Positions 22,900-59,022 of a stretch of DNA of 64,000 nucleotides are shown in pieces. Both the position numbers and the translations under genes were made by a program. Numbering within the stretch: position 1 is the first letter of the stretch; each line of letters opens with the position of its first letter. The notes beneath the pieces were generated by a model, which worked only from the letters and a program-made list of their open reading frames with translations, made no database searches and had not been told where the DNA came from. The DNA is from an uncultured Methanosarcinales archaeon (lineage in GTDB: Archaea > Nanobdellota > Nanobdellia > Woesearchaeales > ARS49), in the NCBI GenBank assembly GCA_964353335.1, contig CAYGVI010000003.1, positions 263,085-327,084 on the forward strand, written 5' to 3'.

Positions 22900-22901
22900 A
22901 A

Positions 22902-35512: not shown

Positions 35513-35527
35513 GCATAAAAAAGAGGA

Positions 35528-41000: not shown

Positions 41001-43118
41001 AAATCCCACAGCGCTGAAATAAACGTAACTAAGGACATGACGTCATACACTTACTATGTTGCCTGCAAGAACACAGCAGAGCTGCCTTCTGCAACAGTGC
41101 CTGTCAAATTCAGCGTTGACACAACCATACCATTCGCGATAACAAGCCTCACCCCGCCATACTCCAACTCAACAGAATTCAGCATCGCCCTGCAGACAAA
41201 CAAGCGCGCATTATGCTACATTGCAGAAGACCCTGAAGTCACGCCCACTTTCATGGGATTGATGGGCCATTCGCACGTCTACCCTGTTGAAGTCAATAAG
41301 TCAGGCAATTATTCCTGGTATGTGAAGTGCAGCACAGGCGCAGGAAGCGAGGTTGCTGATATGTGGATCAATGTGCTTGTTGACACAACCCCGCCTGTAA
41401 TGCTGTATGTGAATGACAGTTCCAACCTGGCTGAGACTCCTGATGTCTCTTACTTCCTTGACCAGTTGATGGTAAAATTCCTTGGAGTTGACAATGAGAC
41501 CGCTGTTAATGCGTATTATTACCGCCTGCAGACTTTCTTCGCGAACGCCACAATCCTCAACTGGACTCTCAGCACAAACACAAACGGCACAGCATTTTAC
41601 GTGACAGGGTTGAACCTCACCGACGGCAACAAGTACAGGTTCGAGGCCTATCCTGTGAACATTATCGGGCTGCAGGGCGAGGCAAAGCAGAGCGATGGTG
41701 TGACGATTGATTCAACCAAGAAGCCTGCTGACTGCGTTAATGACATTCAGGATGGAAATGAAACAGACCTTGACTGCGGTGGCTTATGCCCTGGCTGCAA
41801 TGATGGCGGCAAGTGCAATGCTGATACAGACTGCCTGTCAGGATTCTGCGACAATGGACTCTGCGCACTGGTCGGCTGCGATGATGTTGCAAAGAATGGC
41901 AATGAAACAGATGTTGACTGCGGCGGAGGAGTGTGCCTGCCGTGCGGAATGAACAAGAGCTGCGTGCAGGATGCTGACTGCGCGAGCGGCAGCTGCAATT
42001 ATGGCACGTGCGGCGACCCGATACCATGCTCAGACGGCTTGCTCACAGGAACAGAATCAGACATTGACTGCGGAGGCTCATGCCCGAACAAGTGCGGCGA
42101 GGGAAAGAACTGCCAGGTGCCTTCTGACTGCGCAGGCGCACTGCTTTGCATTGACGAAACCTGCCAGGGATTGCTCGACAGCGACAATGACGGCGTTGAG
42201 GACGCAAAAGACAAGTGCCCGAACACGCCTGTCGGTGAAGCAGTTGATGAAAACGGCTGCTCTGCCTCGCAAAGGTTCACCTGTGGCGATGAGATATCTG
42301 ACGGCTGGAGGATAAAGTACTTTGGCAGCGTGCTTTGCGACGGAGACGGCGCCCCTGGTGCAGACCCTGACAAGGACGGCCTTACAAATGTTGAGGAATA
42401 CAGGGCGCGCACTGACCCGGCAAACGCAGACACTGATGGCGATGGATGGAATGACAAGGTTGAGCTTGACAAGGGCTATGACCCTCTTGACCCTGCTTCG
42501 CACCCGCCAAGCAAGGTGCGTATTTTGCTCTGGACTCTGCTCATACTTCTTTTGCTTGCAGTTCTGGGTGTCGGCGGATGGCTCGGCTACCAGTATTACA
42601 TGGAGAAGAGGCTTGAAGCCCTTCCGCCTTCAATACCTGCAAAGGCAGAAGCCCCTGAGCGCAAGTACAGGAAGTGGCCTTCAATAATTGAAAAGCTGCG
42701 CAGGATAGCGCGCAAGGAAGAGCCTGGTGTCATTGACCGCGACTGGGTATCGCTCGCAGAGCTTTCAGAGCGCCTGAAGGAAGGGAAAGTGCACGTGCAC
42801 AAGGATGTCTTTGAACGCCTTGAGGGCCTGATAAGCGGAAAGATTCCAAAGGAGGAGACAGAAAGCATCCTTGAGGCAATCCAGAAGGAGCCAAAGGCAT
42901 TCAAGCTTTTGCGCAGGATTTCATTTGAGAAGCTCTCTCCTGCTGAAAAGGAGTTTGTGCGCAAGCGCCTTGCATTCCTAAAGTCAGGAAAGCTCACATC
43001 AGCAGAGCTTGAGCAGGTGCTCACAAAGCTGCGCATAACCGCAGCATATTATAGGACTCACAGGGAAGAGCTTGAGCGCGAGCTTGAGGAATGGCTTGAT
43101 GAGCGGAGGCACAAATGA
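38040..43118 (+). CDS. Giant (1,692 aa) Cys-rich surface protein with thrombospondin-type-3-like Ca-binding repeats, C-terminal TM anchor and cytoplasmic coiled-coil tail
   Basis: Signal 'MRKLLLIAVVAAFFYMALFS'. Three ~40-aa tandem repeats '(N)ETDxDCGGxCxxCxxGxxCxxxxDCxSGxCxxGxC' (nt ~41730-42170). TSP3-like 'DSDNDGVEDAKDKCPNTP' and 'DPDKDGLTNVEEY...DTDGDGWNDKVELD' motifs. TM 'ILLWTLLILLLLAVLGVGGWLGY', then a Lys/Glu-rich tail. Confidence 0.7.
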   Translation: MRKLLLIAVVAAFFYMALFSQQASGQEQGCCCEPIYHRGIIEERSACEEKGYNFTSELPAEVGESCDPICNSTFGIPIIITPPADCESPFFNPAPMSVVAKAVKGKKQIRLIYTVPCPMQAIAVNISRCAGDDCEDFSQIAQMSPTGVYTDASPDLLWNTPYTYMVVITSRISGASEPGFAIGNAGDIECWNQGFDKFCISDYYYTRFQEYLSMYGYKDTSADAFAGDLQSSVELTFADKFNTGRYCNDINLLSDTGLSCPEGKKCVSGKLGLACITPTSCEGGGLFGLYSSLETCEGTASAKKYCFFDRSHSSVDRCYSCSPQMSCADYRSEGTCNRDNCFAGNCSWKPVFPDIGIGVCVDSRFPNCAWCTKQGTEGLENTDAYNEVFDQCTTRKSIALTVPNYLCTFDKNAQESNGCDATACMDYNDTDCGSPAGGIQLNPDNSLEVGSTDPCSIKVCQLQSGIGCLKNADGNGLFDCGIKSDDRRQCELDHYPPNTTFVATSYKPNRMDWLEARMLDQVNGTADADYMQGKQGYRLRVCVDSEETPCAEATTFAETNLSLLNFNDLYLQAGRDVVATMSDGENTLKYYGVDRSNNPEVIKEMTILACDKCQGPKVLGINVTPSRSYEGKFYTISEIPVITVAFNELSTLTTATLSIGNKVMPVNVMPLGGANYDYTFIPINTLEDGEYLLAFNAKDSNGLLMDLPGLAIIVVDTTPGDVTILPPDGTVINDTSVAISFTFNQPPVSLLGAYLDNEVWISKYATKKKIMNLTSSLVETEPNKVYDTTVDELYGGKKNIRVYAEDFAGNPVIGKSSFWINSGPLQMRMREPSWGVSATYVFDIAIDTSIAATCKYAYDLPAPVPVAAFNDFLAPFPEEKEVVHKIPGFNKISFGDMKAHKLSVYCKAGANITMETFELRVDPSPPTIKSAYADPAVIIERRTPSVDIFTTYLKAQTDDDGFCRYSTESKPFILMDGLFSGFDEYPKKSHSAEINVTKDMTSYTYYVACKNTAELPSATVPVKFSVDTTIPFAITSLTPPYSNSTEFSIALQTNKRALCYIAEDPEVTPTFMGLMGHSHVYPVEVNKSGNYSWYVKCSTGAGSEVADMWINVLVDTTPPVMLYVNDSSNLAETPDVSYFLDQLMVKFLGVDNETAVNAYYYRLQTFFANATILNWTLSTNTNGTAFYVTGLNLTDGNKYRFEAYPVNIIGLQGEAKQSDGVTIDSTKKPADCVNDIQDGNETDLDCGGLCPGCNDGGKCNADTDCLSGFCDNGLCALVGCDDVAKNGNETDVDCGGGVCLPCGMNKSCVQDADCASGSCNYGTCGDPIPCSDGLLTGTESDIDCGGSCPNKCGEGKNCQVPSDCAGALLCIDETCQGLLDSDNDGVEDAKDKCPNTPVGEAVDENGCSASQRFTCGDEISDGWRIKYFGSVLCDGDGAPGADPDKDGLTNVEEYRARTDPANADTDGDGWNDKVELDKGYDPLDPASHPPSKVRILLWTLLILLLLAVLGVGGWLGYQYYMEKRLEALPPSIPAKAEAPERKYRKWPSIIEKLRRIARKEEPGVIDRDWVSLAELSERLKEGKVHVHKDVFERLEGLISGKIPKEETESILEAIQKEPKAFKLLRRISFEKLSPAEKEFVRKRLAFLKSGKLTSAELEQVLTKLRITAAYYRTHREELERELEEWLDERRHK

Positions 43119-43633
43119 ATAATCGTGCGCAAATGATAGGCCAGGTTTTCATCTTTGTCATAGCGGGGCTTGTCTTCGTGCTTATCCTGGGCTATGGCTA
43201 CAAGGCAATAATGGGCTTAATGGAAAAAGGCGAGAAGGTCCAGCTGATTGACTTCCGCAACAAGCTTGACTCCTCAATCAACATCATAAAAAGGGATTAT
43301 GGGAGCGTGCAGCGCGTTGACCTTATTGTGCCTTCAAATACAGATGAAGTCTGCTTTGCGACTTCTGACAAGAATGATGTGCGTTCGGGCGAATGGGAAA
43401 AGAATTTCCAGGAAGAGCGCCCATTGTTTTACGGCGCTTGGGTAACCGGCACTGAGAATGTGTTCTTTGTGCCAAAACAGTCCACTCCAATACCTGAGAA
43501 GGATATTGTTGTTGACCCTGAAGGCAAGGGCTATCTCTGCGTCAATGCTGCAGGCGGCAGGATAAGCCTGCGCATGGAGGGCATTGGAAGCAAGGTGCTG
43601 ATAACAGAATGGCCTGTGCAGGGGGCAGAATGA
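43115..43633 (+). CDS. Pilin-like protein with class III signal peptide
   Basis: 172 aa; 'MNNRAQMIGQVFIFVIAGLVFVLILGYGY'; start overlaps the upstream stop. Confidence 0.5.
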   Translation: MNNRAQMIGQVFIFVIAGLVFVLILGYGYKAIMGLMEKGEKVQLIDFRNKLDSSINIIKRDYGSVQRVDLIVPSNTDEVCFATSDKNDVRSGEWEKNFQEERPLFYGAWVTGTENVFFVPKQSTPIPEKDIVVDPEGKGYLCVNAAGGRISLRMEGIGSKVLITEWPVQGAE

Positions 43634-44712
43634 GCAAGCGCGCGGTTGAAATGCAGTTCAACTGGATTTTCATCCTGATAGCAGGCGCTGTCATCCTTGC
43701 TTTCTTTTTCAACGTTGTGCAAAAGCAGCGCGCGCTCAGCGAGGAAAAGCTTTCAATAAAGCTTGCATCGCAGATGGATGCTATTTTTTCAGGAGCTATA
43801 GAAAGCAAGGGCACAATCCAGCCGCTCGCAACCCCCAAGCCAGGGATTGCGTTTTCCTGCAGTGATACCTGCGTCTGCAAATACCACGTAGGCAAAAGCG
43901 GAATAGAGTTTAATGACAAACTGATTTTCGCGCCTCCCTTAATCAAGGAACAGGATGCAAGGGCATGGGCTGTTGAGTGGAAGCTGCCGTTCCGCATTGC
44001 AAACTTCTTGATGCTCACAAATCCCGCAATAAAGTATTACCTTGTTTATGACTCTGCAAACCCGCTGTCAGCGCAGGCTTTCCAGCGCATCAGCAAGGGG
44101 CTGCCAAAGGAAATCAACAGGGAAACAATCTCATCCCCTTCAGGAGCAGGGGATGTTTCACCAGAGGGGTATGTGCAGACGCGCTTTGTTTTCATCGGCA
44201 CATCAGAGCCTGACCTTAGCAATCTCAGGATGGAATTCCAGAGCGAGGATGTTTCAGGCGTTTGGATTGATGACACTCTTGAGAAAGTTGTGTTTTACGA
44301 GAAATCAGACCCTGACAGGCTTGAATTCAACCAGTACCCTTCGTCCCTTGCCGGCGAGGAGACTGCTTATGCGACAATATTTGCCGCAGACCACATGATG
44401 TACAACTGCATGATGCAGCGCGCATTTGACAAGCTCGGCGCAATAGCAGGCGTGCACGAAGCCCGCGCCCGCGCTTTGCAGGAAACTATGGGCGCGCTTG
44501 ACACTCCGCGGCTTGACTGTGTTGGCGCTTATGACCCGATTATCACCTCGCTTGCGAATATGAGGCAGAAGGCAGTATTGCTTGGCACTTCATTTTCCCA
44601 GGAAGCCGATGCGCAGGGCGCAGGAGCCCTTGCTGGAATACTCGGAGTCCAGACAGAGCTTAACACCCAGAATACAAACCTGATAAAGCAGAACTGCCCG
44701 GAGATTTACTGA
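43609..44712 (+). CDS. Pilin-like protein with class III-like signal peptide
   Basis: 367 aa; 'MSKRAVEMQFNWIFILIAGAVILAFFF'; overlaps upstream gene. Confidence 0.45.
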   Translation: MACAGGRMSKRAVEMQFNWIFILIAGAVILAFFFNVVQKQRALSEEKLSIKLASQMDAIFSGAIESKGTIQPLATPKPGIAFSCSDTCVCKYHVGKSGIEFNDKLIFAPPLIKEQDARAWAVEWKLPFRIANFLMLTNPAIKYYLVYDSANPLSAQAFQRISKGLPKEINRETISSPSGAGDVSPEGYVQTRFVFIGTSEPDLSNLRMEFQSEDVSGVWIDDTLEKVVFYEKSDPDRLEFNQYPSSLAGEETAYATIFAADHMMYNCMMQRAFDKLGAIAGVHEARARALQETMGALDTPRLDCVGAYDPIITSLANMRQKAVLLGTSFSQEADAQGAGALAGILGVQTELNTQNTNLIKQNCPEIY

Positions 44713-45194
44713 TGAAAAAAGCGCAGATACAGATGTTTGAGACTGTTGGCGTGCTTGTGGTATTCTTCTTCCTGCTTGTTGCCGGCGCAGTGTTTTATTT
44801 TAACATCCAGAAGTCATCTATGCAGAAGGAGCTTGTCCAGCAGGCTCAGCTCAGAAGCCTGCAGTCAGCCCAGCGCGCTGTCTTTTTGCCAGAGCTTGAC
44901 TGCAGCTTTGCACGCGTGACGCGCGACAACTGCTTTGACCGCTTCAAGATCGCGGCATTGCATGAAATTATCGCAAATGATGACCACACGCGCCAGGTTT
45001 ATACCCGCTCTTTCGGATATGCAAACATCTCTGTAACAGAGGTCTTTCCAGGCTCTGGGATGACTGTGATTTATGACTATCCGCCTGAGGAATACCGCGG
45101 CATACTGAAGTCGCAGCTGCCTGTCCTGCTTTATGACCCTGTGACATGGGATGCTGCATTTGGAATAATGGAGGTCACAACATATGCGTCGTGA
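44712..45194 (+). CDS. Pilin-like protein with class III signal peptide
   Basis: 160 aa; 'MKKAQIQMFETVGVLVVFFFLLVAGAVFYF'. Confidence 0.5.
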   Translation: MKKAQIQMFETVGVLVVFFFLLVAGAVFYFNIQKSSMQKELVQQAQLRSLQSAQRAVFLPELDCSFARVTRDNCFDRFKIAALHEIIANDDHTRQVYTRSFGYANISVTEVFPGSGMTVIYDYPPEEYRGILKSQLPVLLYDPVTWDAAFGIMEVTTYAS

Positions 45195-45675
45195 TAAGCG
45201 CGGCCAGATGGAGATAATGGGCCTGGCAATAATAGTGATACTTGTTTCCCTTGCGATGCTCTTTGCAGTGCAGTGGATGCTTAAGCCTTCAACAGCAACT
45301 GTCCAGAAGACAAAGCAGTCTGTTCTCGCCACAAGTATGCTCACCACAATGGTCGGCACAACAACAGACTGCAACAAGCGCACAGTTGGTGATTTGCTTG
45401 GCGACTGCGCGCTCACGCAGGGTGCGACAAAATGCGCTGACATGACATCCTGCGATTATGTGCGCGGGGTAATGGGCAGCATCTTTAACGCGACAATGAA
45501 AAAATGGAAGCTTAATTATTATTTCCACATCACCGGAGCGAGTTCTGTTGAGGATATGAAGTTCGGAAGCGGCTCCACGCCCCAGCCGTGCAAAGGCGCA
45601 AAGCAGGGCAAGGAATACCCCCTTGTCGTCACCCAGACATATGAGCTCAAGCTCTATCTTGATATCTGCGGGTGA
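45184..45675 (+). CDS. Pilin-like protein with class III signal peptide
   Basis: 163 aa; 'MRRDKRGQMEIMGLAIIVILVSLAMLFAV' (KRG|Q plus hydrophobic helix); 8 Cys in the mature part. Confidence 0.5.
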   Translation: MRRDKRGQMEIMGLAIIVILVSLAMLFAVQWMLKPSTATVQKTKQSVLATSMLTTMVGTTTDCNKRTVGDLLGDCALTQGATKCADMTSCDYVRGVMGSIFNATMKKWKLNYYFHITGASSVEDMKFGSGSTPQPCKGAKQGKEYPLVVTQTYELKLYLDICG

Positions 45676-49836: not shown

Positions 49837-50142
49837 ATGGATAAGAAAGCTCAGGGGCTACCAATAACAACAATTATCATAGCTATCCTTGGACTGGTTG
49901 TTCTGGTCATTTTGTTCGCAATCACTACAGGCAGGCTTGCCATATTTGGAAGGGCTACTGCAGAATGCCAGGGCATTTGTGTCGGTGAATACACTGGCGC
50001 AACCCCTGACCAAAATGCCCGCGAATGCACAGCTGGTTTTGAGAAAGAAGTTGGCGGCAATTATGTTAAGCCAGGACAGCCGCAGAGTATCAAGGCAGAG
50101 GAAATACTCAAGTGCTCGCGCTGCTGCCTGCCAATTGCCTGA
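49837..50142 (+). CDS. Small pilin (class III signal peptide), paralog 1; candidate major pilin
   Basis: 101 aa; 'MDKKAQGLPITTIIIAILGLVVLVILFAI'; mature part has 6 Cys including a C-terminal 'CSRCC'. Confidence 0.55.
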   Translation: MDKKAQGLPITTIIIAILGLVVLVILFAITTGRLAIFGRATAECQGICVGEYTGATPDQNARECTAGFEKEVGGNYVKPGQPQSIKAEEILKCSRCCLPIA

Positions 50143-50272
50143 TGGCGCTTATCACAGAAGCAACGCCCGGAAAAATTGTTGTTTTGATTTTCCTCGCGCT
50201 GCTGCTAATATACCTTGTCACCACATTGTTTGTGCTTGACAAGCAGCTTGTAATACCAATAATACCCGTACC

Positions 50273-50551
50273 ATGAAGAAAGCACAAGGTCTTCCAATAA
50301 CAACAATCATTATTGCAGTTCTTGGGCTGGTTGTTCTGATTGTTATTATGGGAATATTCGGGGTCCGCAGCCAGAAGTTCGGCAAGGGCGTAAGCGAGGT
50401 AGCTGAGCCCGTCTGCCAGGCGCAGTATGTTACTTCCATGACTGACTGCGATGCACGTGGCGGCGAAGCCCAGGTTGGCAGCTTTGTTAAGGAAGACAAG
50501 AGCCGCCTTGGCTTTACAGAAGTCTGTTGCTCTAAGGCACAATCACCCTAA
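50273..50551 (+). CDS. Small pilin (class III signal peptide), paralog 2
   Basis: 92 aa; 'MKKAQGLPITTIIIAVLGLVVLIVIMGIFG', near-identical N-terminus to paralog 1; C-terminal 'VCCSK'. Confidence 0.55.
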   Translation: MKKAQGLPITTIIIAVLGLVVLIVIMGIFGVRSQKFGKGVSEVAEPVCQAQYVTSMTDCDARGGEAQVGSFVKEDKSRLGFTEVCCSKAQSP

Positions 50552-50715: not shown

Positions 50716-51642
50716 TTGAGGCGCGGCGCAATCGGTGTTAACACCCTTGTCAGTCTGGCAGTGCTGCTTATCGTGGTTTTTGTGATGCTGGGGTTGATTC
50801 CTGGGTTTACGCAAAAGCTTCAGGCAGCTGAAAGCGCGAGCACGTGCTCGTGGTCTATCCTTCTTGCTTCTGTGCAAAAGCTCGGCTCAGCAGGAATTGC
50901 ACAGGGAATTCCAGAGGGCTGCAAGGCAATAATGGTCAATGTCTCAATGAAAGACCTTGAGAAAAACCAGAGGCTCGCAAGCAACCGCATATCAGAGTTC
51001 ATGAACAAGCCTGACATTTACAAATCACAGTATTTCACAAACACAAACAAGGAAACACTTAACGAATTCGCGCTCGACAAGATACTTGCAGATGAGCTCG
51101 TTGACTGCTGGGAAAAAGTCTTCAAGGGAAAAATGCCCTTGTTTGATGAATGGTGGCGGCTTTACTCATGGAAAGAAGGCAACCCTGGCAGTGGTCCGGT
51201 TGCTCTGCAAGTCTGGAATGTGCAAGTGCATGGTCCGCCTGTCAACTGCGTTATTTGCTCGCGAATAACATTTTCAGATGAAGTTATTTCACAATTTAAG
51301 CAAAAGCAAATAATCTCACTTGAAGAATGGATGTCCCTGAATCCAGTTCCTCGGACAAATACTCCGTATCTTCAGTATATTTATGAAGGCCAGACCGGCA
51401 CAGACCTGTTCAAGCCAAAATACAGGCCAAAATACAGCTTTGTTGCTGATGAGCGTGGATTAGCGGTTCTTTATCAGCGCGTGAATGTCCATGGACTCGA
51501 AAGCGCTGTCACAACACCCTTGAAATGGATTGGAGCAATTCCTGAAAAAACTCCAGACCTGAACTATCTGAAGCTTGTTCCTTACTCGCAGGAAGCCATA
51601 ATTTCACAGGATGGCGAGGGCTGCACGCTTATAATTGACTAA
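50716..51642 (+). CDS. Pilin/archaellin-like protein with class III signal peptide (probable TTG start)
   Basis: ORF track gives an ATG at 50641, but that adds 25 residues with no function. A TTG at 50716 preceded by 'ggcggtg' yields 'MRRGAIGVNTLVSLAVLLIVVFVMLGL', a textbook archaeal class III signal; ~308 aa. Confidence 0.45.
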   Translation: MRRGAIGVNTLVSLAVLLIVVFVMLGLIPGFTQKLQAAESASTCSWSILLASVQKLGSAGIAQGIPEGCKAIMVNVSMKDLEKNQRLASNRISEFMNKPDIYKSQYFTNTNKETLNEFALDKILADELVDCWEKVFKGKMPLFDEWWRLYSWKEGNPGSGPVALQVWNVQVHGPPVNCVICSRITFSDEVISQFKQKQIISLEEWMSLNPVPRTNTPYLQYIYEGQTGTDLFKPKYRPKYSFVADERGLAVLYQRVNVHGLESAVTTPLKWIGAIPEKTPDLNYLKLVPYSQEAIISQDGEGCTLIID

Positions 51643-51809
51643 AATGATAAAAACACTTTATTCGTTGTGGAAAAACAGGAAGGCAATGGATATTCCCGGA
51701 TGGGCTTATGTCATCGCTTTGATTATCGGTCTGTTTGTGATACTGTTTGCAATCTGGATTGCTGCAAAGTCAGGTTCCAAGCAGTCCGGCTTCCTGGAGC
51801 AAATATAAG

Positions 51810-54800
51810 ATGCACAAGAAAGGCCAATTCGCGGGCATTCCTATCCCAATAATACTTGGGATTGTCGTGATTCTGATAGTTTCAGGAGGGCTTCTCTGGA
51901 GCATGGGCGGTGGAATTGCGCAAAAAATATTCGGAGAGCGCGGCATCCTTCCGCTTGGCCAGAAAGAAGGGGCATTTGTGCCTTATACAGGTCCCCCGCT
52001 TACAGAAGATGAACGCAAGGTTTTGAACTCAGCGAATGCCCTTCGCTGTGCTCTAAACAGCGTTGCAGTGGGCGAATTCAGGCCAGACGACCCTAAAGTC
52101 TGCCCTCCGCCTCTTGAATCAGTGCCGCAAAATATTGTTCAATCCCCCACAGGTCAGGCATGGGTTGTTGTTACTGGAATGGCTGCAACACCAAAGGCAT
52201 ATGACGCCTCTGCTGTGCAGTGCACAGGGATGGCTCCTAACCGCATTGTTGCCCCTGCAACAGAGGATGAAACACTCGTGGCGATTACAAAGGAAATACT
52301 CGATTGCAAGGCAAGAGCTTCAGTCACTTACTCTTCGCAAGACCTGCGTTGTGCATACATTGATTACAAAAGGAAGGCGGACAGCTTTTCAATCGATGAG
52401 GACAAGCTGATCGCATTCATGGAAAAAAACAAGGCAAAATTCCCCGGTCAGGAGAAAACAATTGATGAACTGCTTTCAAGCGCGAATTATGCTTGGCAGA
52501 ACCTCATTGAGATACAAACAACTTTCAATAAGGGGAAAATCAGCAGCAATCCTGATGAAGTGTTCTGCGTCGACTTCAGGCACGGGACCGTACTGAATTA
52601 TTACATCAGCATAAATGACTGCGACCTTGACGCCTCAGAAACATTCTCCTGCTCTGTGAAAGACTTTGAACTGCCGCAGGATGTTGGCGGAACCACGGCG
52701 AAATTGTTCCTCTCGGCATACGGCGACCCGCGATGGCTTGTCTATTACGAGTCATTCCCGTCTGAGGCTGCCGAATACTGGCACAAGGAATGGAGCGACA
52801 TGTTCAACGTGTGGACCATCGCCACCGTAACCGCCTCAGGGATGCTTAACCTGGCTGGCGGAGCAGGAAAAGGGGCAAAGGCAGTGAAGGCTGTTGCTGA
52901 AAAGGAAGCCAAGGAGCTCGCAAAGGAGACTGGTGAGGCATTGGCAAAGCGCGGGATTGCCGAAGCAGAAAAAGTGATTATTAACCGGCTTGCCAAGAAC
53001 GGTGTTGAAAACACGATGAAAGCAGCAGTGATGAAAGAATCATTCCAGGGAATAAAAGGGGTTGGCGAGGAAGCTGCTGACGAGATAACAGAGGTTATTT
53101 TGAAATCTGTCGGAACAAGGTCAGGTCCTCGCGCATGGGAAAAAGCAATGGAGCAGGGTGTTGCAAAGCAGATTGATGATGTTGTTGAGAAGAGGATTAA
53201 GGATGTTCCTGATGCATTTGTCAAGACTTGGAGGGAAACGGTGCCAATAACCGAATTGACCGGCCCTGGAATGACTGGGCTGCCTGACGCAGAAATCCGC
53301 GCAAAGGCATTGCAGGCGTACAAGGAGTCTGTAAAGAAGTTTGTTATTGAGGGCAAGGAACTGCCTGAAGAAGCCATAGAGGCAGGTGCAAAGAGGACAA
53401 TGTCATTTGCAGGCACAGAAGTCAAGGGCGGGCTAAAAGAACTGATTGAAAGGGACTTGACTAAGGAAATGTCAGCCAATATTATCAAGAAGCGCGCTTA
53501 TGAAAATCTTCTTTCCAAGATGATTACAAAAGAGGGAACGCTGGATACTGCGCTGTTCACAAAGAATGCAGAGTCAGCAATCAACAGCCTTAATGCTATA
53601 GGACAAATAAACCCCACTGGGCTTGGAAAGGCACTGGGCGGGTCTAGAGAAATACTTGACATTTTGCTGTCAAACTCATTAGGCGGATTCTCCACAAAGA
53701 ATTTCCCAAAAATATGGAATCCAAAAGAGCTTTTTGCATTTATCACTGCGCAATCGCCGATTAAGCTTTCAGGCAGGGGTTTTGTAGTTGGAGGAACCGC
53801 AGTTAAAACCGTTGCTAACATGCCTAGCTGGGTTGCCACTCACTCCTATCCTGCAATGCTGCTAATTTCCTGGTTTATCGCAGCACAGGATTCTACTAAT
53901 CAAAAATTCAGGCCTGTTGGCGGAAATACCATTGCCATCAACCAGCCGACCCTGCTTGGTCCGACGCTGCCGCTTGACCTGACTGGTACCGCGTATGACT
54001 TTTTTATCCAAAACAAGGACAAGTACGGCCAAAGGATGTATTATGTCAGCCCGTGCAAGGCAGACCTTACGGTTTACAAGCGCAAGTGCACATGCTACAA
54101 GAACCCGCAGCTGCATAAGTTCACTTATCCCACAGGAACAATCAATGTTGAGCCCGGCTCTGTTAAACCTTTGTCAGGCTCAGTCCTTGAGGCAAAGTTC
54201 AAGACAAAATGGGAGCAGACTGCCAAAGCAGTAAAGTTTGAGAACTGGCGCGCGCAATGGAATGCTCTTGATGCAAAGACAAAATCAGATGTATACGGTG
54301 ATTCGTATGATAAGTATGCGCTCGCTGAGTACATTGATGAGGAAATGGACAAGTATGATGCCAATTTCTTCCAGGAAGTGGTGTCTCCTGTAGGTGGGCT
54401 TGTAAAGGGAAGGAGTGGAATAATAACCTGGCTTGCCGGGACACAAAATGTGCAAACCGGGCTTTCTGCGCAATTGTATGGTGAGAGGATGAAGGAGTGG
54501 TATGATGCCTCGCACGCAATCAAGCGCTGTGACCAACCAGGGTTTGTAAAGGACGTTATGAATTTCGGAGGCACGCTTTATTACAGCTATATGGCAGGAG
54601 GAAACCTGTTCGACACAACAATGGACGCTGAAGCCAAGAAGAATCTCGAGAATAGCCTGCTCCAGGACGAGTACTTCAAGCCAGACTGCCTTGAAATAGA
54701 AACAAAGGTTCTTGATGGCACTTATTGTTATGACTCCTTCCCAAAACTGGAATGGGTGAGGAATGCAGTCACGATTGCTTCGCTTGCCGCTGATGCTATT

Positions 54801-54908
54801 ATAATTGGAGGGTCCGGCGGGTTTGCCACACCGCTTGCTCTGCTTGGAACAGGGATTTTGTCAGCAGGGACTGATGTTGTGCTGGAGGCTTGGGAGAAAT
54901 GGCCATGA
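51810..54908 (+). CDS. Giant (~1,032 aa) protein with class III signal peptide (pilus-associated adhesin candidate)
   Basis: Internal ATG 51810 gives 'MHKKGQFAGIPIPIILGIVVILIVSGG'; large extracellular region, central Ala/Lys/Glu-rich helical segment, C-terminal hydrophobic Gly-rich tail. Confidence 0.55.
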   Translation: MHKKGQFAGIPIPIILGIVVILIVSGGLLWSMGGGIAQKIFGERGILPLGQKEGAFVPYTGPPLTEDERKVLNSANALRCALNSVAVGEFRPDDPKVCPPPLESVPQNIVQSPTGQAWVVVTGMAATPKAYDASAVQCTGMAPNRIVAPATEDETLVAITKEILDCKARASVTYSSQDLRCAYIDYKRKADSFSIDEDKLIAFMEKNKAKFPGQEKTIDELLSSANYAWQNLIEIQTTFNKGKISSNPDEVFCVDFRHGTVLNYYISINDCDLDASETFSCSVKDFELPQDVGGTTAKLFLSAYGDPRWLVYYESFPSEAAEYWHKEWSDMFNVWTIATVTASGMLNLAGGAGKGAKAVKAVAEKEAKELAKETGEALAKRGIAEAEKVIINRLAKNGVENTMKAAVMKESFQGIKGVGEEAADEITEVILKSVGTRSGPRAWEKAMEQGVAKQIDDVVEKRIKDVPDAFVKTWRETVPITELTGPGMTGLPDAEIRAKALQAYKESVKKFVIEGKELPEEAIEAGAKRTMSFAGTEVKGGLKELIERDLTKEMSANIIKKRAYENLLSKMITKEGTLDTALFTKNAESAINSLNAIGQINPTGLGKALGGSREILDILLSNSLGGFSTKNFPKIWNPKELFAFITAQSPIKLSGRGFVVGGTAVKTVANMPSWVATHSYPAMLLISWFIAAQDSTNQKFRPVGGNTIAINQPTLLGPTLPLDLTGTAYDFFIQNKDKYGQRMYYVSPCKADLTVYKRKCTCYKNPQLHKFTYPTGTINVEPGSVKPLSGSVLEAKFKTKWEQTAKAVKFENWRAQWNALDAKTKSDVYGDSYDKYALAEYIDEEMDKYDANFFQEVVSPVGGLVKGRSGIITWLAGTQNVQTGLSAQLYGERMKEWYDASHAIKRCDQPGFVKDVMNFGGTLYYSYMAGGNLFDTTMDAEAKKNLENSLLQDEYFKPDCLEIETKVLDGTYCYDSFPKLEWVRNAVTIASLAADAIIIGGSGGFATPLALLGTGILSAGTDVVLEAWEKWP

Positions 54909-55549
54909 AAAAGCTGTTTGCCATACTTTTGGCAATAATCATTGTAATCCTGATTATTCTCGGAACGCGGTGGATTATGCAGCCAAAAATTCACGTGTAC
55001 AGCAACAATCCTGCTGACTGGCTTTCCACTGTTCCAGGCGGCGTAAGTGTTGACGTAAAAGAGGCAACTCGCGGAAAAGGGTCATACAATGACGTTAATG
55101 AGCAGATTTTGGTTCCGGGAATGGGCTTTACTGCATTTGCGTATGAGGGAATTTACAAGAGTAATTTCTTTGGCACTAAGTACATTGATGAAAACGGAAA
55201 GACAATAATGGAAGTGACTCCAAACATGAATCCAAATGATGGAATCCTGCAGGGATTTATGGTTGAGCGGGCTGTTAATGGCACGTTGGAAACCTATATT
55301 TTCATTGATGAGGACTGGCGCAGGGCTCTTGGCAATGACATCAGGATTGTTTGGGGCTCTGATTATTCAAAGAGCAGGCCATTTTCTTTCAGGCAGTTAA
55401 GGACAGGAATTTATCATGATTTTGTGCAGGACGACAGCGGAAGGCTTCAGGCTGAAATAAGCGTTGGCGGGGTCCAAGTTGGAAACATGCAGACAGGCGG
55501 GGTTGACCCTATGCAGGCAGGGAACATAATAATGATGGCAATACATTAG
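54905..55549 (+). CDS. Membrane-anchored protein (pilin-like N-terminus)
   Basis: 'MKKLFAILLAIIIVILIILG'; ATGA overlap with the upstream stop; ~214 aa. Confidence 0.45.
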   Translation: MKKLFAILLAIIIVILIILGTRWIMQPKIHVYSNNPADWLSTVPGGVSVDVKEATRGKGSYNDVNEQILVPGMGFTAFAYEGIYKSNFFGTKYIDENGKTIMEVTPNMNPNDGILQGFMVERAVNGTLETYIFIDEDWRRALGNDIRIVWGSDYSKSRPFSFRQLRTGIYHDFVQDDSGRLQAEISVGGVQVGNMQTGGVDPMQAGNIIMMAIH

Positions 55550-55575
55550 AAAAAGTTAAATACGGGGAAGCAAAA

Positions 55576-55881
55576 ATGATGCTTATGAAGAAGCGCGGAC
55601 AGGGTTTGCCAATCAACACTATCATTCTTGCAGTGCTTGGGCTGGCTGTTCTTGTCATCCTTCTTTTCCTTGTGAGCGGCAAGCTGAGTGAGGGCTCCAA
55701 GAAGTATGGCAATATCACCCAGAGCGCAGAACAGCAGGCAAAGTCACAGGATGTTTGCGAGAGTGTCTTTGCCTATCCGCAGAGAAAGTGCCTTTCTTCA
55801 TCCGAGTGTACCCAAAGGAACGGCTTTGACAGGCCAGGGTACAAGGGCTGTGGTTCTAATGTTTGCTGCGAGCTTGGATAG
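55576..55881 (+). CDS. Small pilin (class III signal peptide), paralog 3
   Basis: 101 aa; 'MMLMKKRGQGLPINTIILAVLGLAVLVILLFLV'; C-terminal 'CGSNVCCELG'; same architecture as 49837/50273. Confidence 0.55.
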   Translation: MMLMKKRGQGLPINTIILAVLGLAVLVILLFLVSGKLSEGSKKYGNITQSAEQQAKSQDVCESVFAYPQRKCLSSSECTQRNGFDRPGYKGCGSNVCCELG

Positions 55882-55917
55882 AAACATTTATATTCTCTTT
55901 TTAACGGCTTTTCCGTC

Positions 55918-56382
55918 ATGGACAAAAGAGGGGAAGTAGAGACTGCGCCGCTGATAGAACTTGTCAATATAGTGCGCTACGTAATCATTTTTCTCATCCT
56001 GCTCTCGATTTTTTACGGCACTTATGCATTGTTTTTCAAGGAAAAATCATCACCACAGCAGCTGGACTGGGACCGTGTTATCAGGGAAATCACTGCCCTT
56101 CCTGAAGGCAGGTCAGTGAATGTCATAACGTCTTCAGAGGGCTACCAGCTTTTCCTTTACGGTGGAAACAATGATGAGCAGCTTTGCGCAAAAAAGCCCT
56201 GCCTGTGCATTGAGCAGCCAGAAAAGCCAAGGAAATGCGCACTGCTTTCAGGTTTCCAGGACAACTGCGCAAACGGGCTTTGCGCCAGGCCGTCAATGTT
56301 CCCTGAGTCAGGAATACTGCCAAAAGGCACCCCTGTCCCAATCTGCAGGCAAAAAAACCAAATAACACTGGGCACGTGCTAA
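55918..56382 (+). CDS. Pilin-like protein (class III-like signal)
   Basis: 154 aa; 'MDKRGEVETAPLIELVNIVRYVIIFLILLSIFYG'; Cys-rich C-terminus. Confidence 0.4.
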   Translation: MDKRGEVETAPLIELVNIVRYVIIFLILLSIFYGTYALFFKEKSSPQQLDWDRVIREITALPEGRSVNVITSSEGYQLFLYGGNNDEQLCAKKPCLCIEQPEKPRKCALLSGFQDNCANGLCARPSMFPESGILPKGTPVPICRQKNQITLGTC

Positions 56383-56383
56383 G

Positions 56384-57298
56384 ATGTTCTCAAAAAAAGC
56401 ATCCTGGGTCGGTCTTGTATTGCATCCGTTATTTGAGACTGCCATCGCCCTGGGCATTGTGCTTCTTTACCTTCTCTGGTTCATACACGGAATAGGCGAA
56501 ACAGCCACGTATGAGAAAAGGTTTTTGTCAACAGACATTCCTTTGCTGATGGACTCAATACTTGCAATGCCGCAGAAAGGAAACCTGTACGCGCTTTACA
56601 ACCCACAGCGCTCGACAGATTTCAGCACAAATTACAGCTTTAGCTTCTTAAAAAACCAGGTAATAATAATGGCAGGACCTGCAGACAAAAAGCAGGTCAC
56701 TGGATATTATACTTCAAAGCCAGGAATATATGTGCAGGAAAAACAGTTTATTGCAAAAGACGCCATGATTGTTCCGCTGTTTATACTGCAGGGAAATGAC
56801 CTGTTGATTGACAATGCGAACAAGCGCGAACTCACATACAACCGCAACATAATGCCCTGCTCAGGCCCAAGATTCCCAGGAACACTGAGCATACAGGGGG
56901 AAAATGCTGCAGCACAGCTTCTTTTGGGCCAGCGCTGGGCTGTAAAGTCAGGCGGAAGCGGTGCTTTCAGCATGCAAATCAAGCAAGGGCAGGAAACTGT
57001 TGTCAAGGCATACTTTAACGCAGAACAGCCTGCAGACCAGCTTGCCCAGAGCAGGCGCATTGCCTGCGAGGTTGCAAATGCAGCAGTGCGCGGGCTTGAC
57101 AAGATAGGCATTGATGTTGCCGGCTCTGCATTCATCCCGATAAATCCCAAGCACACAGGCAGCACTGATGATGACTTCCTGCAGGGGCTTGGTGTTTTGC
57201 TTGAGATTGATACTCCTGAAAAGCTTGACAATGTTCAGACACAGGTAACGCCGCTTGCGCTTGCGGTCGGAGAAGGGGTGCAGAATGCGAAATCGTAA
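56384..57298 (+). CDS. Pilin-like/membrane-anchored protein
   Basis: 304 aa; 'MFSKKASWVGLVLHPLFETAIALGIVLLYLLWF'. Confidence 0.4.
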   Translation: MFSKKASWVGLVLHPLFETAIALGIVLLYLLWFIHGIGETATYEKRFLSTDIPLLMDSILAMPQKGNLYALYNPQRSTDFSTNYSFSFLKNQVIIMAGPADKKQVTGYYTSKPGIYVQEKQFIAKDAMIVPLFILQGNDLLIDNANKRELTYNRNIMPCSGPRFPGTLSIQGENAAAQLLLGQRWAVKSGGSGAFSMQIKQGQETVVKAYFNAEQPADQLAQSRRIACEVANAAVRGLDKIGIDVAGSAFIPINPKHTGSTDDDFLQGLGVLLEIDTPEKLDNVQTQVTPLALAVGEGVQNAKS

Positions 57299-57773
57299 GG
57301 CTGTGCTGGCAGAGGGGGTTATTTTCTGGATGATTTACATCGCTATGACCGGAGTTGTTATTTTCCTGATACGCGCAATCCCATCAACAGTTTACAGCCA
57401 GGCAACAGAGACTTTCGGAATGGAAAACGCAGTGCTCACAGACCGCGTTTACAATGAGGTCGCGTGGGAATCGCCTTTGACGCAGCGCGAATACATTGGC
57501 GAGCTTCCAAAGCTCTCTGACTGGGACACAAAGCGCATCAACAGCGCATTTGACACGCTCGGCGCTCCAAGGCAGCTCAGCTTCAAATTGACTCTTGAGG
57601 GCAAAGAGGCGTATTATGACGAGGCGTTTTACAAGCGCGCAAAGCCATTGTCTCCTGTGCGCTACAAGAGCTTTGTTGAGACGCGCCCTGTCTGGATTGT
57701 GGAAGACAAAAAAATTGCAACACTGGAGATTGACCAGGTGTTTGCGCCAGTGCCTCCTGGAGGGATGGTATGA
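57285..57773 (+). CDS. Pilin-like protein with class III signal peptide
   Basis: Start 'MRNRKAVLAEGVIFWMIYIAMTGVVIFLI' overlaps the upstream gene by 14 nt. Confidence 0.45.
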   Translation: MRNRKAVLAEGVIFWMIYIAMTGVVIFLIRAIPSTVYSQATETFGMENAVLTDRVYNEVAWESPLTQREYIGELPKLSDWDTKRINSAFDTLGAPRQLSFKLTLEGKEAYYDEAFYKRAKPLSPVRYKSFVETRPVWIVEDKKIATLEIDQVFAPVPPGGMV

Positions 57774-58159
57774 ACAGGAAGGCGGCAATGGGAAGGGCAT
57801 TGACAATCCTCATGTCAGCAGGGATTATCGCGCTGTTTTTCTTCATATTCATATTTGTTATTGAAATAGGCACGCCTGGCAAGGCAATGGGTATCAGCGA
57901 AAACCTGAACGGCCTCAGCAGAGAAAGCCAGCTGAGGACAATAATAAGCCATTCTGCAGATGACCTTGCTCAGGCAAAGCCAGGCAGTGTTCCTGAGATG
58001 GTCAAAGAAACATTTGGCAAGGATGCAAAGTTTGCCCTGTATATCAACAACGCAATTGTTTCAGGAGCAAAAGTTGGCAGGGTAACTGCGGCAATTAACA
58101 CAATGCTTCCAAATTATGAGGGCAGCACTGTCAGTGTAAGGCTGGAGGTAGGCTCATGA
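57770..58159 (+). CDS. Pilin-like protein with class III signal peptide
   Basis: 129 aa; 'MNRKAAMGRALTILMSAGIIALFFFIFIFVI'. Confidence 0.45.
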   Translation: MNRKAAMGRALTILMSAGIIALFFFIFIFVIEIGTPGKAMGISENLNGLSRESQLRTIISHSADDLAQAKPGSVPEMVKETFGKDAKFALYINNAIVSGAKVGRVTAAINTMLPNYEGSTVSVRLEVGS

Positions 58160-59022
58160 TTTCCCTTTTGCGCAACAAAAAGGGAATGGACTACGCAGCA
58201 CTTCTTGTCCTTGTGGTTATTATCTGCCTGATGTACCTTTACATCCAGCTGCAGGGCAAGGTAAACACTTTCCAGGTCAGCATTGGCGAATCCCAGATTG
58301 CTGTCCTCAATGCGTATCAGGAAGGGGAAAAGGCATTGCTCTATGTTGACCAGTCTGCAAAATTCTCTGCATACAAAGCACTTGACACCCTTGCCCAGCG
58401 CGCAGGCGTGAAAGAATATGCGTGCGCAGACATAACAGAAGGAGGCAAAAAGATTAATTCTTGGACAAAACAAAATGGAACTATCGATGAATGCCTCGCT
58501 CTTGTCCAGCCGTATGACGCATTTAATGAGCTTATGAACGGCCACATGACAATTTATTCCTCAAAATACACAAATGCATCCCTGCCTGCGAACAATTATG
58601 AGATGCTTGTTCAGAAAGACAGCATCACAGGCACTGCAATCTCTTCTGCTTCGGTTTATCTCAAGCCGCCAACACAATATGCTGCATTCTATGTCTGGTT
58701 CATAAAAGCAGCAGAGGCAGAGCTGAAGAAGGCTGCAATCGGCGAATATGCATTCAAGCCCTCATTCACTGTTCCTGTAAAGGCAGAGCTTGGCATTTAC
58801 GAGAATATGAAAAACGAAGTGAAAGCGTTCTATACGTGCACAAACACAAACTCTATTGATGAATGCGCAAAAGCGCCAAAGCTTTTCACGCTTGCACGCA
58901 GCTCTGAAAACCCTGATTATCTGATTGCAACAGCAAAGAACCCTGTGAGCAACCCGTATGGTGCAATGAGCGACATTGTTTTCGCGATTTCTGCCCCTGT
59001 TGCCCCTGCTGTAACCGCGTAA
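58156..59022 (+). CDS. Pilin-like protein with class III signal peptide
   Basis: 288 aa; 'MISLLRNKKGMDYAALLVLVVIICLMYLY'; last gene of the coupled block. Confidence 0.45.
   Translation: MISLLRNKKGMDYAALLVLVVIICLMYLYIQLQGKVNTFQVSIGESQIAVLNAYQEGEKALLYVDQSAKFSAYKALDTLAQRAGVKEYACADITEGGKKINSWTKQNGTIDECLALVQPYDAFNELMNGHMTIYSSKYTNASLPANNYEMLVQKDSITGTAISSASVYLKPPTQYAAFYVWFIKAAEAELKKAAIGEYAFKPSFTVPVKAELGIYENMKNEVKAFYTCTNTNSIDECAKAPKLFTLARSSENPDYLIATAKNPVSNPYGAMSDIVFAISAPVAPAVTA

What the first reader, a model, noticed from the sequence alone, without database searches (positions are those of the whole stretch)
51810..54908. A protein of more than 1,000 aa carries a class III pilin-type signal peptide
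From the internal ATG at 51810 the protein begins 'MHKKGQFAGIPIPIILGIVVILIV', a canonical KG|Q class III signal, and then runs for another ~1,000 aa. That region includes an Ala/Lys/Glu-rich helical segment ('GAGKGAKAVKAVAEKEAKELAKETGEALAKRGIAEAEK') and a Gly-rich hydrophobic C-terminus. Pilin-like signals on proteins this large are rare. They imply a pilus-incorporated or pilus-anchored adhesin, analogous to large minor pilins and tip proteins. The gene is followed by seven more coupled pilin-like genes.
Basis: partly seen in the sequence, partly recalled or inferred. Interest (0 to 1): 0.6.

Follow-up and report, generated by a model that had tools for sequence, protein, structure and literature searches.

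The report
Swappable giant pilin-signal surface protein
A 1,032-residue protein of a tiny symbiotic (DPANN) archaeon really does start with a pilin-type signal, sits in an operon of a dozen pilin-like genes, is exchanged between near-identical strains as a cassette, and has a 375-residue core that never carries a glycosylation site or a cysteine in any relative.

Summary
The gene runs 51810-54908 and encodes 1,032 aa starting MHKKG|QFAGIPIPIILGIVVILIV. The upstream in-frame start at 51747 is TTG, not ATG, and it overlaps a 40-aa gene that stops 1 nt before 51810.

Two new findings:
- Strains with 96-98% identical flanks carry three alleles only 26-30% identical. They are swapped together with the next gene between 51953 and 55589, and the first 47 residues stay identical.
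- Residues ~326-700 hold 0 N-x-S/T sequons in 30,411 residues of 78 relatives (130 +/- 11 expected) and almost no cysteine, while unglycosylatable N-P-S/T is kept.

Best reading: a prepilin-anchored, wholly extracellular, exchangeable contact subunit, not a simple pilin. Its function is untested.

The parts
51810..54908 (+). Gene for the 1,032-aa protein ('BIG'), stop codon included
   Evidence: ORF and start. Identical public gene call P0001. Family of 232 clusters at 50% identity.
51810..51824 (+). n-region MHKKG. The putative prepilin-peptidase site lies between G5 and Q6.
   Evidence: Sequence. [KR][GA] in 96 of 118 relatives against 46 +/- 5 in shuffles. Site rule from PMC4371748. Cleavage itself is inferred.
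51825..51929 (+). N-terminal hydrophobic helix (residues 6-40), the only clear membrane-spanning segment
   Evidence: Kyte-Doolittle peak 2.7. Median 24-residue uncharged run, at least 18 residues in 67 of 78 relatives. AF2 helix 11-40.
51990..52799 (+). Outer domain 1 (residues ~61-330), alpha/beta, with 8 Cys. It ends in the most conserved motif C-x-V-x2-F-x-LPQ ... DPxWLVYYESFP.
   Evidence: Cys map. Invariant columns. Family Cys density 2.76 per 100 residues. AF2 pLDDT 70-90.
52785..53909 (+). Central helical zone (residues ~326-700), free of Cys and of N-x-S/T sequons throughout the family
   Evidence: 0 sequons in 30,411 residues of 78 relatives against 130 +/- 11 in shuffles. N-P-S/T occurs 11 times against 3.2 expected. 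Cys is about 0.1 per 100 residues.
52806..52865 (+). Internal hydrophobic helix h2 (residues 333-352), rich in G/A/T with a conserved polar residue
   Evidence: Followed by a K/R-rich stretch (3.27 K+R per 15 aa).
53844..53891 (+). Internal hydrophobic helix h3 (residues 679-694), ending in invariant D694. It is too short to span a bilayer.
   Evidence: Median uncharged run of 14 residues, at least 18 in only 2 of 78 relatives. D694 is invariant.
53910..54734 (+). Outer domain 2 (residues ~701-975), with 6 Cys and the conserved SPCKA ... C-x-C motif
54741..54905 (+). C-terminal Gly-rich hydrophobic helix pair ending in KWP
   Evidence: AF2 helices 978-1001 and 1007-1030. A WP motif lies within the last 60 aa in 76 of 78 relatives, and the median uncharged run is 26 residues.
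51953..55589 (.). Exchangeable cassette: BIG from about residue 48 to its end, plus the next gene
   Evidence: L003 and L049 are 96-98.7% identical to the window on both sides and show no DNA similarity inside. The edges are shown base by base.
54899..55549 (+). 216-aa partner gene (p216) that varies together with BIG: N-terminal helix plus a Cys-free beta-rich domain
   Evidence: Next to BIG in 32-33 of 48 loci. Swapped with BIG, and inverted in L049 and L005. AF2 pLDDT 60, with only weak Ig-like fold hits.
51686..51808 (+). 40-aa single-helix gene whose stop lies 1 nt before the BIG start
50716..51642 (+). 308-aa pilin-like protein (MRRG|AIGVNTLVSLAVLL), the second most conserved neighbour
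   Evidence: Found in 28-29 of 48 loci. N-termini. Weak ComGF-pilin hit on the N-terminal helix, E = 0.009.
49837..50551 (+). Two small Cys-rich pilin-like genes (101 and 92 aa, both KKA|QGLPITTIII) with a 44-aa gene between them
55576..59022 (+). Six further coupled genes with class-III-like N-termini (101, 154, 304, 162, 129 and 288 aa). The 304-aa one is a degenerate Amidase_3 relative.
   Evidence: Amidase_3 in the L005 counterpart at 47.6 bits.
38040..45675 (+). Linked upstream set: a 1,692-aa sequon-rich surface protein and four class-III-signal proteins (172, 367, 160 and 163 aa, e.g. KRG|QMEIMGL)
   Evidence: Present beside BIG in 13-16 loci. N-termini. Sequons 81 against 50 expected.

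Best explanation
BIG is the large, exchangeable subunit of a DPANN-specific cell-surface apparatus built from proteins with prepilin-type (class III) N-termini.

Proposed biogenesis: it is inserted by Sec with its N-terminus inside, held by its N-terminal hydrophobic helix, and probably trimmed after MHKKG by the cell's prepilin peptidase. The remaining ~990 residues lie outside the cytoplasm.

Proposed architecture: two disulfide-bonded globular domains (61-330 and 701-975) flank a helical core (326-700). The core is bounded by two weakly hydrophobic helices and must stay free of glycans and disulfides. A C-terminal Gly-rich hydrophobic helix pair ending in KWP either re-anchors the protein or joins that core.

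Proposed role: BIG and the downstream 216-aa protein form a specificity cassette. It is replaced by recombination between the sequence coding BIG's own N-terminal helix and that of the next pilin gene. BIG is therefore most likely the part that meets a variable partner, such as a host cell surface or a virus.

Shown: start, family, motif conservation, operon, cassette, and the cysteine and sequon patterns. Inferred: cleavage, outside location, contact role.
For: - Start and signal. Family-wide [KR][GA] before the helix: 96 of 118 against 46 +/- 5, matching the archaeal processing rule (PMC4371748).
- Operon of at least 13 proteins with such N-termini, syntenic in all the homologue loci looked up (L001-L008 and L049-L051) and, in part or whole, in many of the 40 distant loci from several DPANN phyla.
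- Outside location. Even numbers of Cys occur only in 80-281 and 749-973. The whole family is about 3-fold depleted in sequons. The core has 0 N-[not P]-S/T against 130 +/- 11 expected, while N-P-S/T occurs 11 times against 3.2 expected. Cytoplasmic proteins of the window sit at expectation (16 against 14.4). Selection against oligosaccharyltransferase acceptor sites only makes sense for a segment that this enzyme can reach.
- h3 is too short to span a membrane.
- Cassette. Three alleles (26-30% identical) sit in 96-98% identical backgrounds with sharp, shared edges, and residues 1-47 are identical. The same allele lineages occur in other species. BIG and p216 are singletons at 90% identity, whereas flanking genes have 4-8 members.
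Against: - No pilus ATPase, TadC/FlaJ platform or prepilin peptidase is in the window, 10 kb beyond its start, or within 10 kb in 48 loci.
- The +1 Gln is not conserved in the family (9 of 96), and the strict FlaFind-like pattern, recalled from memory, matches only 23 of 118.
- The AF2 model is mediocre (pLDDT 58.6) and shows no pilin-like packing of the first helix.
- A K/R-rich stretch after h2 and the lack of Cys in the core would also fit a cytoplasmic loop.
- The C-terminal hydrophobic segment argues against extraction into a fibre.
- There are no experimental data for any member.
Confidence: 0.5

Rival explanations
1. Polytopic membrane scaffold. Helix 1, h2, h3 and the C-terminal pair all span the archaeon's own membrane. 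The two Cys-rich domains are outside, and the 330-residue A/K/E-rich middle is a cytoplasmic domain that couples the surface apparatus to cytoplasmic partners.
For: - Conserved hydrophobic segments at fixed positions.
- Cys absent from the middle (0.13 against 2.76 and 1.88 per 100 residues).
- K+R of 3.27 per 15 aa after h2 against 0.9 before it, as the positive-inside rule predicts.
- Helices predicted at 328-349, 679-697, 978-1001 and 1007-1030.
Against: - A cytoplasmic domain has no reason to lose every N-x-S/T while keeping N-P-S/T: 0 against 130 +/- 11. Cytoplasmic proteins of the same window are at expectation.
- Cys is also far below the level in the cytoplasmic RadA and RPA families of these loci (0.73 and 1.47 per 100).
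- h3 has a median uncharged run of 14 residues, at least 18 in only 2 of 78, and h2 carries a conserved N/D/E/R.
- No match to TadC/FlaJ or any membrane-protein family.
Confidence: 0.15
2. True pilus subunit. After cleavage BIG is lifted out of the membrane and sits at the tip of, or within, a type IV pilus made of the small neighbouring pilins. There it acts as an adhesin, like large minor pilins.
For: - Prepilin-type N-terminus and pilin-like neighbours.
- Hypervariability typical of adhesins.
- Large class-III-signal proteins have been proposed as adhesins or minor pilins in archaeal pilus loci (PMC4858521).
- Modular bacterial pilins exist (PMC8179133, listed).
Against: - The conserved C-terminal hydrophobic segment (median 26 uncharged residues) and the h2/h3 helices would have to leave the membrane too.
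- No pilin-like helix-on-sheet packing in the model.
- No assembly genes nearby.
- The apparatus proteins are glycan-poor, unlike most exposed archaeal pilins.
Confidence: 0.15
3. Ordinary signal-anchored surface protein. The N-terminal helix is an uncleaved type II anchor, [KR][GA] is merely a common end of a charged n-region, and the protein has nothing to do with pilus-type machinery.
For: No machinery genes nearby. No pilin family hit. The partner p216 often lacks the motif.
Against: - The motif is twice as frequent as in shuffles, with G/A/S after the last K/R in 80% of cases.
- At least 12 co-operonic proteins share it, many with the +1 Gln typical of EppA substrates.
- The recombination edges coincide with the two stretches that code for such N-termini.
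Confidence: 0.2
4. The real start is the upstream in-frame codon at 51747, and the hydrophobic stretch is an internal segment or a cleavable Sec signal.
For: The frame is open from 51747. One relative (P0011) is annotated with a long N-terminal extension.
Against: - 51747 is TTG and lies inside the conserved 40-aa gene that ends at 51808.
- Most relatives with a methionine start begin within about 3-28 residues (median 6) of the helix.
- Independent gene calls use 51810.
- The hydrophobic region is about 30 residues long, too long for a cleavable Sec signal, and no conserved A-x-A site follows it.
Confidence: 0.03

Closest known systems
Archaeal class III signal (prepilin-like) proteins processed by PibD/FlaK/EppA, including the Methanococcus maripaludis Epd pilins (sites KGQV, KGQL, KGQI, RAQI)
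   Same: Short basic n-region, G/A at -1, K/R at -2 and, in this copy, Q at +1, followed directly by a hydrophobic helix of about 24 residues. Many such genes are clustered.
   Different: About 10 times larger than a pilin. No match to the Pfam pilin or class-III-signal models. No helix-on-sheet pilin fold in the model. Three extra hydrophobic elements. The +1 Gln is not conserved in the family.
Large class-III-signal or PilY-like (DUF2341) proteins proposed as adhesins or minor pilins in archaeal type IV pilus loci (Makarova et al. 2016, PMC4858521)
   Same: A large secreted protein encoded among minor-pilin-like genes, with many conserved cysteines in the outer domains.
   Different: No DUF2341 or any other Pfam domain. 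Not encoded next to an ATPase or TadC. Has the sequon-free, Cys-free core.
Modular bacterial minor pilins such as Streptococcus sanguinis PilB and PilC (PMC8179133, PMC9934059)
   Same: A pilin-type N-terminus grafted onto a bulky functional module.
   Different: Those are about 50 kDa, have a genuine pilin fold and are proven to be in pili. BIG has no detectable homology to them, and its location is unknown.
Pseudomonas aeruginosa pilin allele groups with linked accessory genes (recalled from memory, not checked here)
   Same: The conserved N-terminal coding part stays with the genome. The variable remainder and a downstream accessory gene are swapped as a unit at a fixed locus.
   Different: The swapped gene here is 3 kb, the alleles are only 26-30% identical, and the lineages are shared between species.
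Secreted proteins that must stay unmodified to cross or enter a membrane, such as type III secretion translocators and alpha-helical pore formers (analogy by mechanism only, from general knowledge)
   Same: A Cys-free helical module flanked by weakly hydrophobic helices.
   Different: No sequence or fold similarity was found. No evidence of membrane insertion.

Membership tests
Archaeal class III (prepilin-type) signal peptide proteins | G/A/S at -1 and a charged residue at -2, placed before (not after) the hydrophobic domain, close to the N-terminus | tested here: met
   The site is MHKK-G|Q. In the family, 96 of 118 members have the motif against 46 +/- 5 in shuffles, and the median n-region is 6 residues. 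The rule is as stated in PMC4371748.
Archaeal class III (prepilin-type) signal peptide proteins | Hydrophobic domain of about 20 residues directly after the site | tested here: met
   Kyte-Doolittle peak 2.7. Median uncharged run of 24 residues.
Archaeal class III (prepilin-type) signal peptide proteins | Actual cleavage by a prepilin peptidase (PibD/FlaK/EppA) | not testable with these tools
   Needs N-terminal mass spectrometry or a co-expression assay. No peptidase gene is in the window.
Type IV pilins (structural subunits) | N-terminal helix whose second half packs on a beta-sheet globular domain | tested here: inconclusive
   AF2 gives helix 11-40, then a low-confidence linker (41-65), then an alpha/beta domain. 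Overall pLDDT is 58.6.
Type IV pilins (structural subunits) | Encoded with, or dependent on, an assembly ATPase and a PilC/TadC/FlaJ platform | tested here: not met
   None in the window, in 10 kb beyond its start, or within 10 kb in 48 loci. Pilin genes are often unlinked in archaea (PMC4858521), so this does not exclude dependence.
EppA-type (Epd/DUF361) pilins | Conserved +1 Gln and a match to the class III signal/DUF361 model | tested here: not met
   This copy has +1 Gln, but only 9 of 96 relatives do. No Pfam hit at E <= 0.1. The small neighbours do keep +1 Gln.
PilY1-like / DUF2341 pilus adhesins | DUF2341 or PilY1 beta-propeller domain | tested here: not met
   No Pfam hit for BIG or for 14 relatives. 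No fold match.
TadC/FlaJ/PilC platform proteins | T2SSF domains and several true membrane spans | tested here: not met
   No Pfam or NCBIfam hit. h3 is too short to span.
Archaeosortase (PGF-CTERM-type) sorted surface proteins | C-terminal sorting motif, then a membrane span, then a basic tail | tested here: not met
   The C-terminus is a Gly-rich helix pair followed by an acidic stretch and KWP. No NCBIfam hit.

The most novel reading that the evidence does not exclude
The glycan-free, cysteine-free helical core, bounded by two weakly hydrophobic G/A-rich helices, is a latent membrane-active module. BIG is held on the symbiont by its pilin-type N-terminus. On contact, the core would insert into or cross the host cell's membrane, forming a pore, bridge or fusion intermediate. 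That would require it to stay unfolded-competent, with no disulfides and no N-glycans. The swappable cassette would set host range. This would give a molecular candidate for how DPANN archaea open a connection to their hosts.
Probability: 0.12. Interest if true: 0.9.

Novelty: new variant of a known kind. Interest (0 to 1): 0.66.

Why it matters
DPANN archaea make up a large share of archaeal diversity and live attached to other cells. The proteins that mediate attachment and exchange are almost unknown, and pilin genes are reported as 'not annotated' in some DPANN genomes that do have Tad-type machinery (PMC9563170).

This locus supplies three things:
- A conserved set of at least 13 prepilin-type proteins found across several DPANN phyla.
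- A giant member that behaves as a strain-level specificity cassette.
- A family-wide, very strong selective signature, complete loss of N-glycosylation sites and cysteines in a 375-residue core. It gives a testable handle on topology and mechanism.

If the core is membrane-active, it bears on the open question of how these symbionts connect to host cytoplasm. If not, the locus is still a marker for host- or virus-driven diversification in uncultured archaea.

Tried and rejected
**Database searches with no significant result**
- Pfam, NCBIfam and PHROGs scans of BIG and its neighbours gave nothing significant.
- A profile search of PDB sequences gave only E >= 0.075.
- Foldseek against PDB gave no hit with E <= 0.001.
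- A viral-contig scan found no relative, so a viral or prophage origin is not supported.
- A second word-indexed homologue search with the alignment added no new sequences.

**Topology hypothesis dropped**
- I first favoured a five-span topology with a cytoplasmic middle, based on the Cys partition and the K/R stretch after h2.
- I dropped it after the sequon analysis with its N-P-S/T control and the run-length test on h3.
- The composition-only sequon expectation proved unreliable for conserved families (RPA 9 against 27.6). I replaced it with reversed-motif, neighbour-motif and shuffle controls.

**Other dead ends**
- The AF2 model of p216 was too weak (pLDDT 60) for its Ig-like hits to count.
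- The weak MotA, FliG_N and ComGF hits are below significance and were not used.
- Szabo et al. 2007 could not be read, so the strict FlaFind pattern rests on memory.
- Walking beyond the window end failed because the protein was not on record.
- Full-text searches and keyword look-ups in seven candidate papers found no description of this family or operon.
Full report
**1. The observation**

The frame is open from 51747 to 54908. The codon at 51747 is TTG, not ATG. The first ATG is 51810, one base after the TAA of a small upstream gene (51686-51808). From 51810 the product is 1,032 aa and starts MHKKGQFAGIPIPIILGIVVILIVSGG. Public gene calls use the same start (P0001). Seven coupled genes follow, with overlaps of 4-14 nt or gaps of at most 36 nt.

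**2. Organism and context**

The window encodes Orc1/Cdc6, FEN1, RFC, eRF1, PheRS, TyrRS, RPA and RadA, so it is archaeal. Related loci come from Woesearchaeota, Nanoarchaeia/Nanoarchaeota, Aenigmatarchaeota and Nanohaloarchaeota genome bins, that is, DPANN archaea.

No type IV pilus ATPase, TadC/FlaJ platform or prepilin peptidase was found in any of these places:
- the 64-kb window;
- 10 kb beyond its start;
- as a recurring family within 10 kb of the gene in 48 loci.

**3. A large unannotated family**

An exhaustive HMMER search found 232 clusters (50% identity level) with E <= 0.001, and 112 with E <= 1e-10. Most are 900-1,300 aa. The shared core lies around residues 270-430 and 660-790.

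**4. Is the N-terminus a class III signal?**

Archaeal prepilin peptidases need G/A/S at -1 and a charged residue at -2, placed before the hydrophobic domain. EppA substrates in M. maripaludis read KGQV, KGQL, KGQI and RAQI (PMC4371748). BIG reads K-G|Q-F.

Across relatives with an N-terminal helix:
- [KR][GA] directly precedes it in 96 of 118, against 45.8 +/- 5.0 in shuffles (maximum 58).
- The residue after the last K/R is G (52), A (32) or S (3) in 87 of 109.
- The n-region has a median length of 6 residues.
- The +1 Gln is not conserved (9 of 96).
- A strict FlaFind-like pattern, recalled from memory, fits only 23 of 118.

The neighbours make the case stronger. Examples are KKA|QGLPITTIII, KRG|QGLPINTII, RRG|AIGVNTLV, KRG|EVETAPL, NKKG|MDYAALLV, NRKA|VLAEGV, and upstream KRG|QMEIMGL, RA|QMIGQVF and KKA|QIQMFE. 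These motifs are kept in orthologues from many loci. Cleavage itself is inferred.

**5. The operon**

The order is:
- small pilin-like genes (101, 44, 92 and 37 aa);
- a 308-aa pilin-like protein;
- a 40-aa protein;
- BIG;
- a 216-aa protein (p216);
- then proteins of 101, 154, 304, 162, 129 and 288 aa;
- then RPA, YdjM and RadA.

This order is kept in all eleven homologue loci that were looked up, including one whose BIG is only 22% identical. Across the 48 loci (L001-L048), p216 lies next to BIG in 32-33 and p308 in 28-29. The 304-aa protein's counterpart in L005 has a full Amidase_3 domain (47.6 bits). The window copy lacks the first part of that domain. An upstream set, a 1,692-aa surface protein plus four class-III-signal proteins, accompanies BIG in 13-16 loci.

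**6. Architecture and topology**

The 14 cysteines lie only at 80-281 (8) and 749-973 (6). In 78 full-length relatives, Cys density is 2.76 per 100 residues in the N-terminal part, 0.13 in the middle and 1.88 in the C-terminal part. Conserved hydrophobic helices sit at 333-352 (h2), 679-694 (h3) and 978-1030. The most conserved motifs lie just before h2 (C-x-V-x2-F-x-LPQ ... DPxWLVYYESFP) and just after h3 (D694 ... SPCKA ... C-x-C).

I first read this as a five-span protein with a cytoplasmic middle, helped by a K/R-rich stretch after h2. Two tests speak against that.

First, run lengths. h3 has a median uncharged run of 14 residues, at least 18 in only 2 of 78. h2 carries a conserved polar or charged residue. 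Helix 1 has a median run of 24.

Second, sequons in the zone 326-700. Over 30,411 residues with a median pairwise identity of 15%:

| Motif | Count |
|---|---|
| N-[not P]-S/T (acceptor sequon) | 0 (shuffles 130 +/- 11, minimum 95) |
| S/T-x-N (reversed) | 156 |
| N-x-A/G | 134 |
| D-x-S/T | 164 |
| N-P-S/T (not an acceptor) | 11 (3.2 expected) |

For comparison, cytoplasmic proteins of the window have 16 sequons against 14.4 expected. The big secreted proteins at 33443-43118 are about 2-fold enriched. The flanking domains of BIG are about 3-fold depleted.

Selection aimed specifically at oligosaccharyltransferase acceptor sites implies that the zone is exposed outside the cytoplasm and must not be glycosylated. 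It also must not form disulfides. Why is unknown. Candidates are later insertion into or passage through a membrane or narrow opening, or burial in a tight assembly.

**7. A specificity cassette**

Two other assemblies (L003, L049) are 96.5-98.7% identical to the window over 41810/43894-51952/51987 and over 55590-59835/64000. Between those points they show no DNA similarity. The left edge falls at about codons 46-60 of BIG, just after the N-terminal helix. The right edge falls at the codons for the class III signal of the next pilin gene.

The three BIG alleles (1,032, 1,083 and 850 aa) are 26-30% identical overall but 100% identical over residues 1-47. p216 changes with them, and in L049 and L005 it is inverted. 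At 90% identity BIG and p216 are singletons, while flanking genes have 4-8 members.

Each allele lineage also occurs in another species whose flanks are about 70-75% identical, with the cassette colinear at similar identity (L009 and L007 for A, L050 for B, L051 for C). The lineages therefore predate, or move between, species. This is the pattern expected of a surface component under diversifying or frequency-dependent selection.

**8. Interpretation**

The best-supported reading is a prepilin-anchored, wholly extracellular, exchangeable contact subunit of a DPANN-wide pilin-like apparatus (confidence about 0.5). Whether it rides on a fibre, sits at its base or works without a fibre cannot be told. 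The conserved C-terminal hydrophobic pair (a WP motif in 76 of 78) argues against simple extraction into a pilus.

The rivals are a polytopic scaffold (0.15), a true pilus-tip adhesin (0.15), an unprocessed signal-anchored protein (0.2) and an upstream start (0.03).

The most novel reading not excluded is that the core is a latent membrane-inserting module used on the host membrane (about 0.12).

**9. Novelty**

Class III signals on large proteins are known in archaea: bindosome-binding proteins, and large proteins in pilus loci (PMC4371748, PMC4858521). The kind is therefore known.

New here are:
- the family itself;
- its DPANN-wide operon;
- the cassette behaviour, bracketed by pilin-signal coding sequence;
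- the complete sequon and Cys exclusion in the core.

Noticed in passing
window 38040-45675: A 1,692-aa sequon-rich surface protein with a Sec signal, thrombospondin-like D-x-D-x-D repeats, a C-terminal membrane span and a K/E-rich tail. It is followed by four proteins with textbook class III signals (RA|QMIGQ, KRA|VEMQF, KKA|QIQMFE, KRG|QMEIMGL). The set accompanies BIG in 13-16 related loci.
   Followed up: partly
window 33443-38043: Three further large Cys-rich secreted proteins (689, 399 and 459 aa) with no Pfam hit. N-x-S/T sequons are about 2-3 fold enriched, the opposite of BIG. Flanks only reach 10 kb, so their conservation in related loci could not be assessed.
   Followed up: partly
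window 16646-22303, minus strand: Another cluster with no family hits: three paralogous ~310-330-aa proteins with lipoprotein-like N-termini (LLAGC, LTAC), a 517-aa multi-span membrane protein, and a 399-aa protein with a class-III-like start (KRG|QASGSAASTLVGIITLLII).
   Followed up: no
window 22396-23534: Two secreted low-complexity proteins (167 and 210 aa), extremely rich in Tyr, Ser and Asp (e.g. YYYADDYYDNYYPAYGNDYSSSYSRSS).
   Followed up: no
window 56384-57298; L005 7005-8057: The 304-aa operon protein is 26% identical to a 350-aa counterpart that has a complete Amidase_3 (N-acetylmuramoyl-L-alanine amidase) domain. In the pairwise alignment the window copy is gapped across the stretch holding the counterpart's DPGHG motif, so it may be inactive. 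An amidase-type domain in an archaeal pilin-like operon is unexpected.
   Followed up: partly
family level: p154, u172, u367, p101a, p308 and p288 homologues in L001-L048: Several other proteins of the apparatus are also poor in N-x-S/T compared with the reversed motif S/T-x-N (1 vs 11, 1 vs 16, 15 vs 41, 1 vs 8, 16 vs 31, 16 vs 28). Characterised archaeal pilins often carry several sequons (Table 1 of PMC4371748). Numbers are small.
   Followed up: partly
window 55576-55620; L003 13914; L049 11201: The small pilin gene right of the cassette has a different pre-sequence in this strain (MMLMKKRGQ) than in the two sister strains (MKRAQ). The recombination edge therefore lies inside its signal-coding part.
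   Followed up: yes
window 45724-47622: A 632-aa protein with N-terminal hydrophobic segments and a C-terminal APH-type kinase domain. It sits between the two pilin-like clusters and is kept there in sister strains.
   Followed up: no
window 63015-63467: A protein whose homologues hit the TRAM domain carries a Gly/Tyr/Arg-rich N-terminal tail (GGDRGGYGSGDGGYGGGGGGGYGGGYSRG) and an acidic Ala/Glu-rich C-terminal tail.
   Followed up: no
window 160-1389, minus strand; L052: Orc1/Cdc6 lies next to the PolD small and large subunits just outside the window, so the window probably lies close to a replication origin.
   Followed up: no
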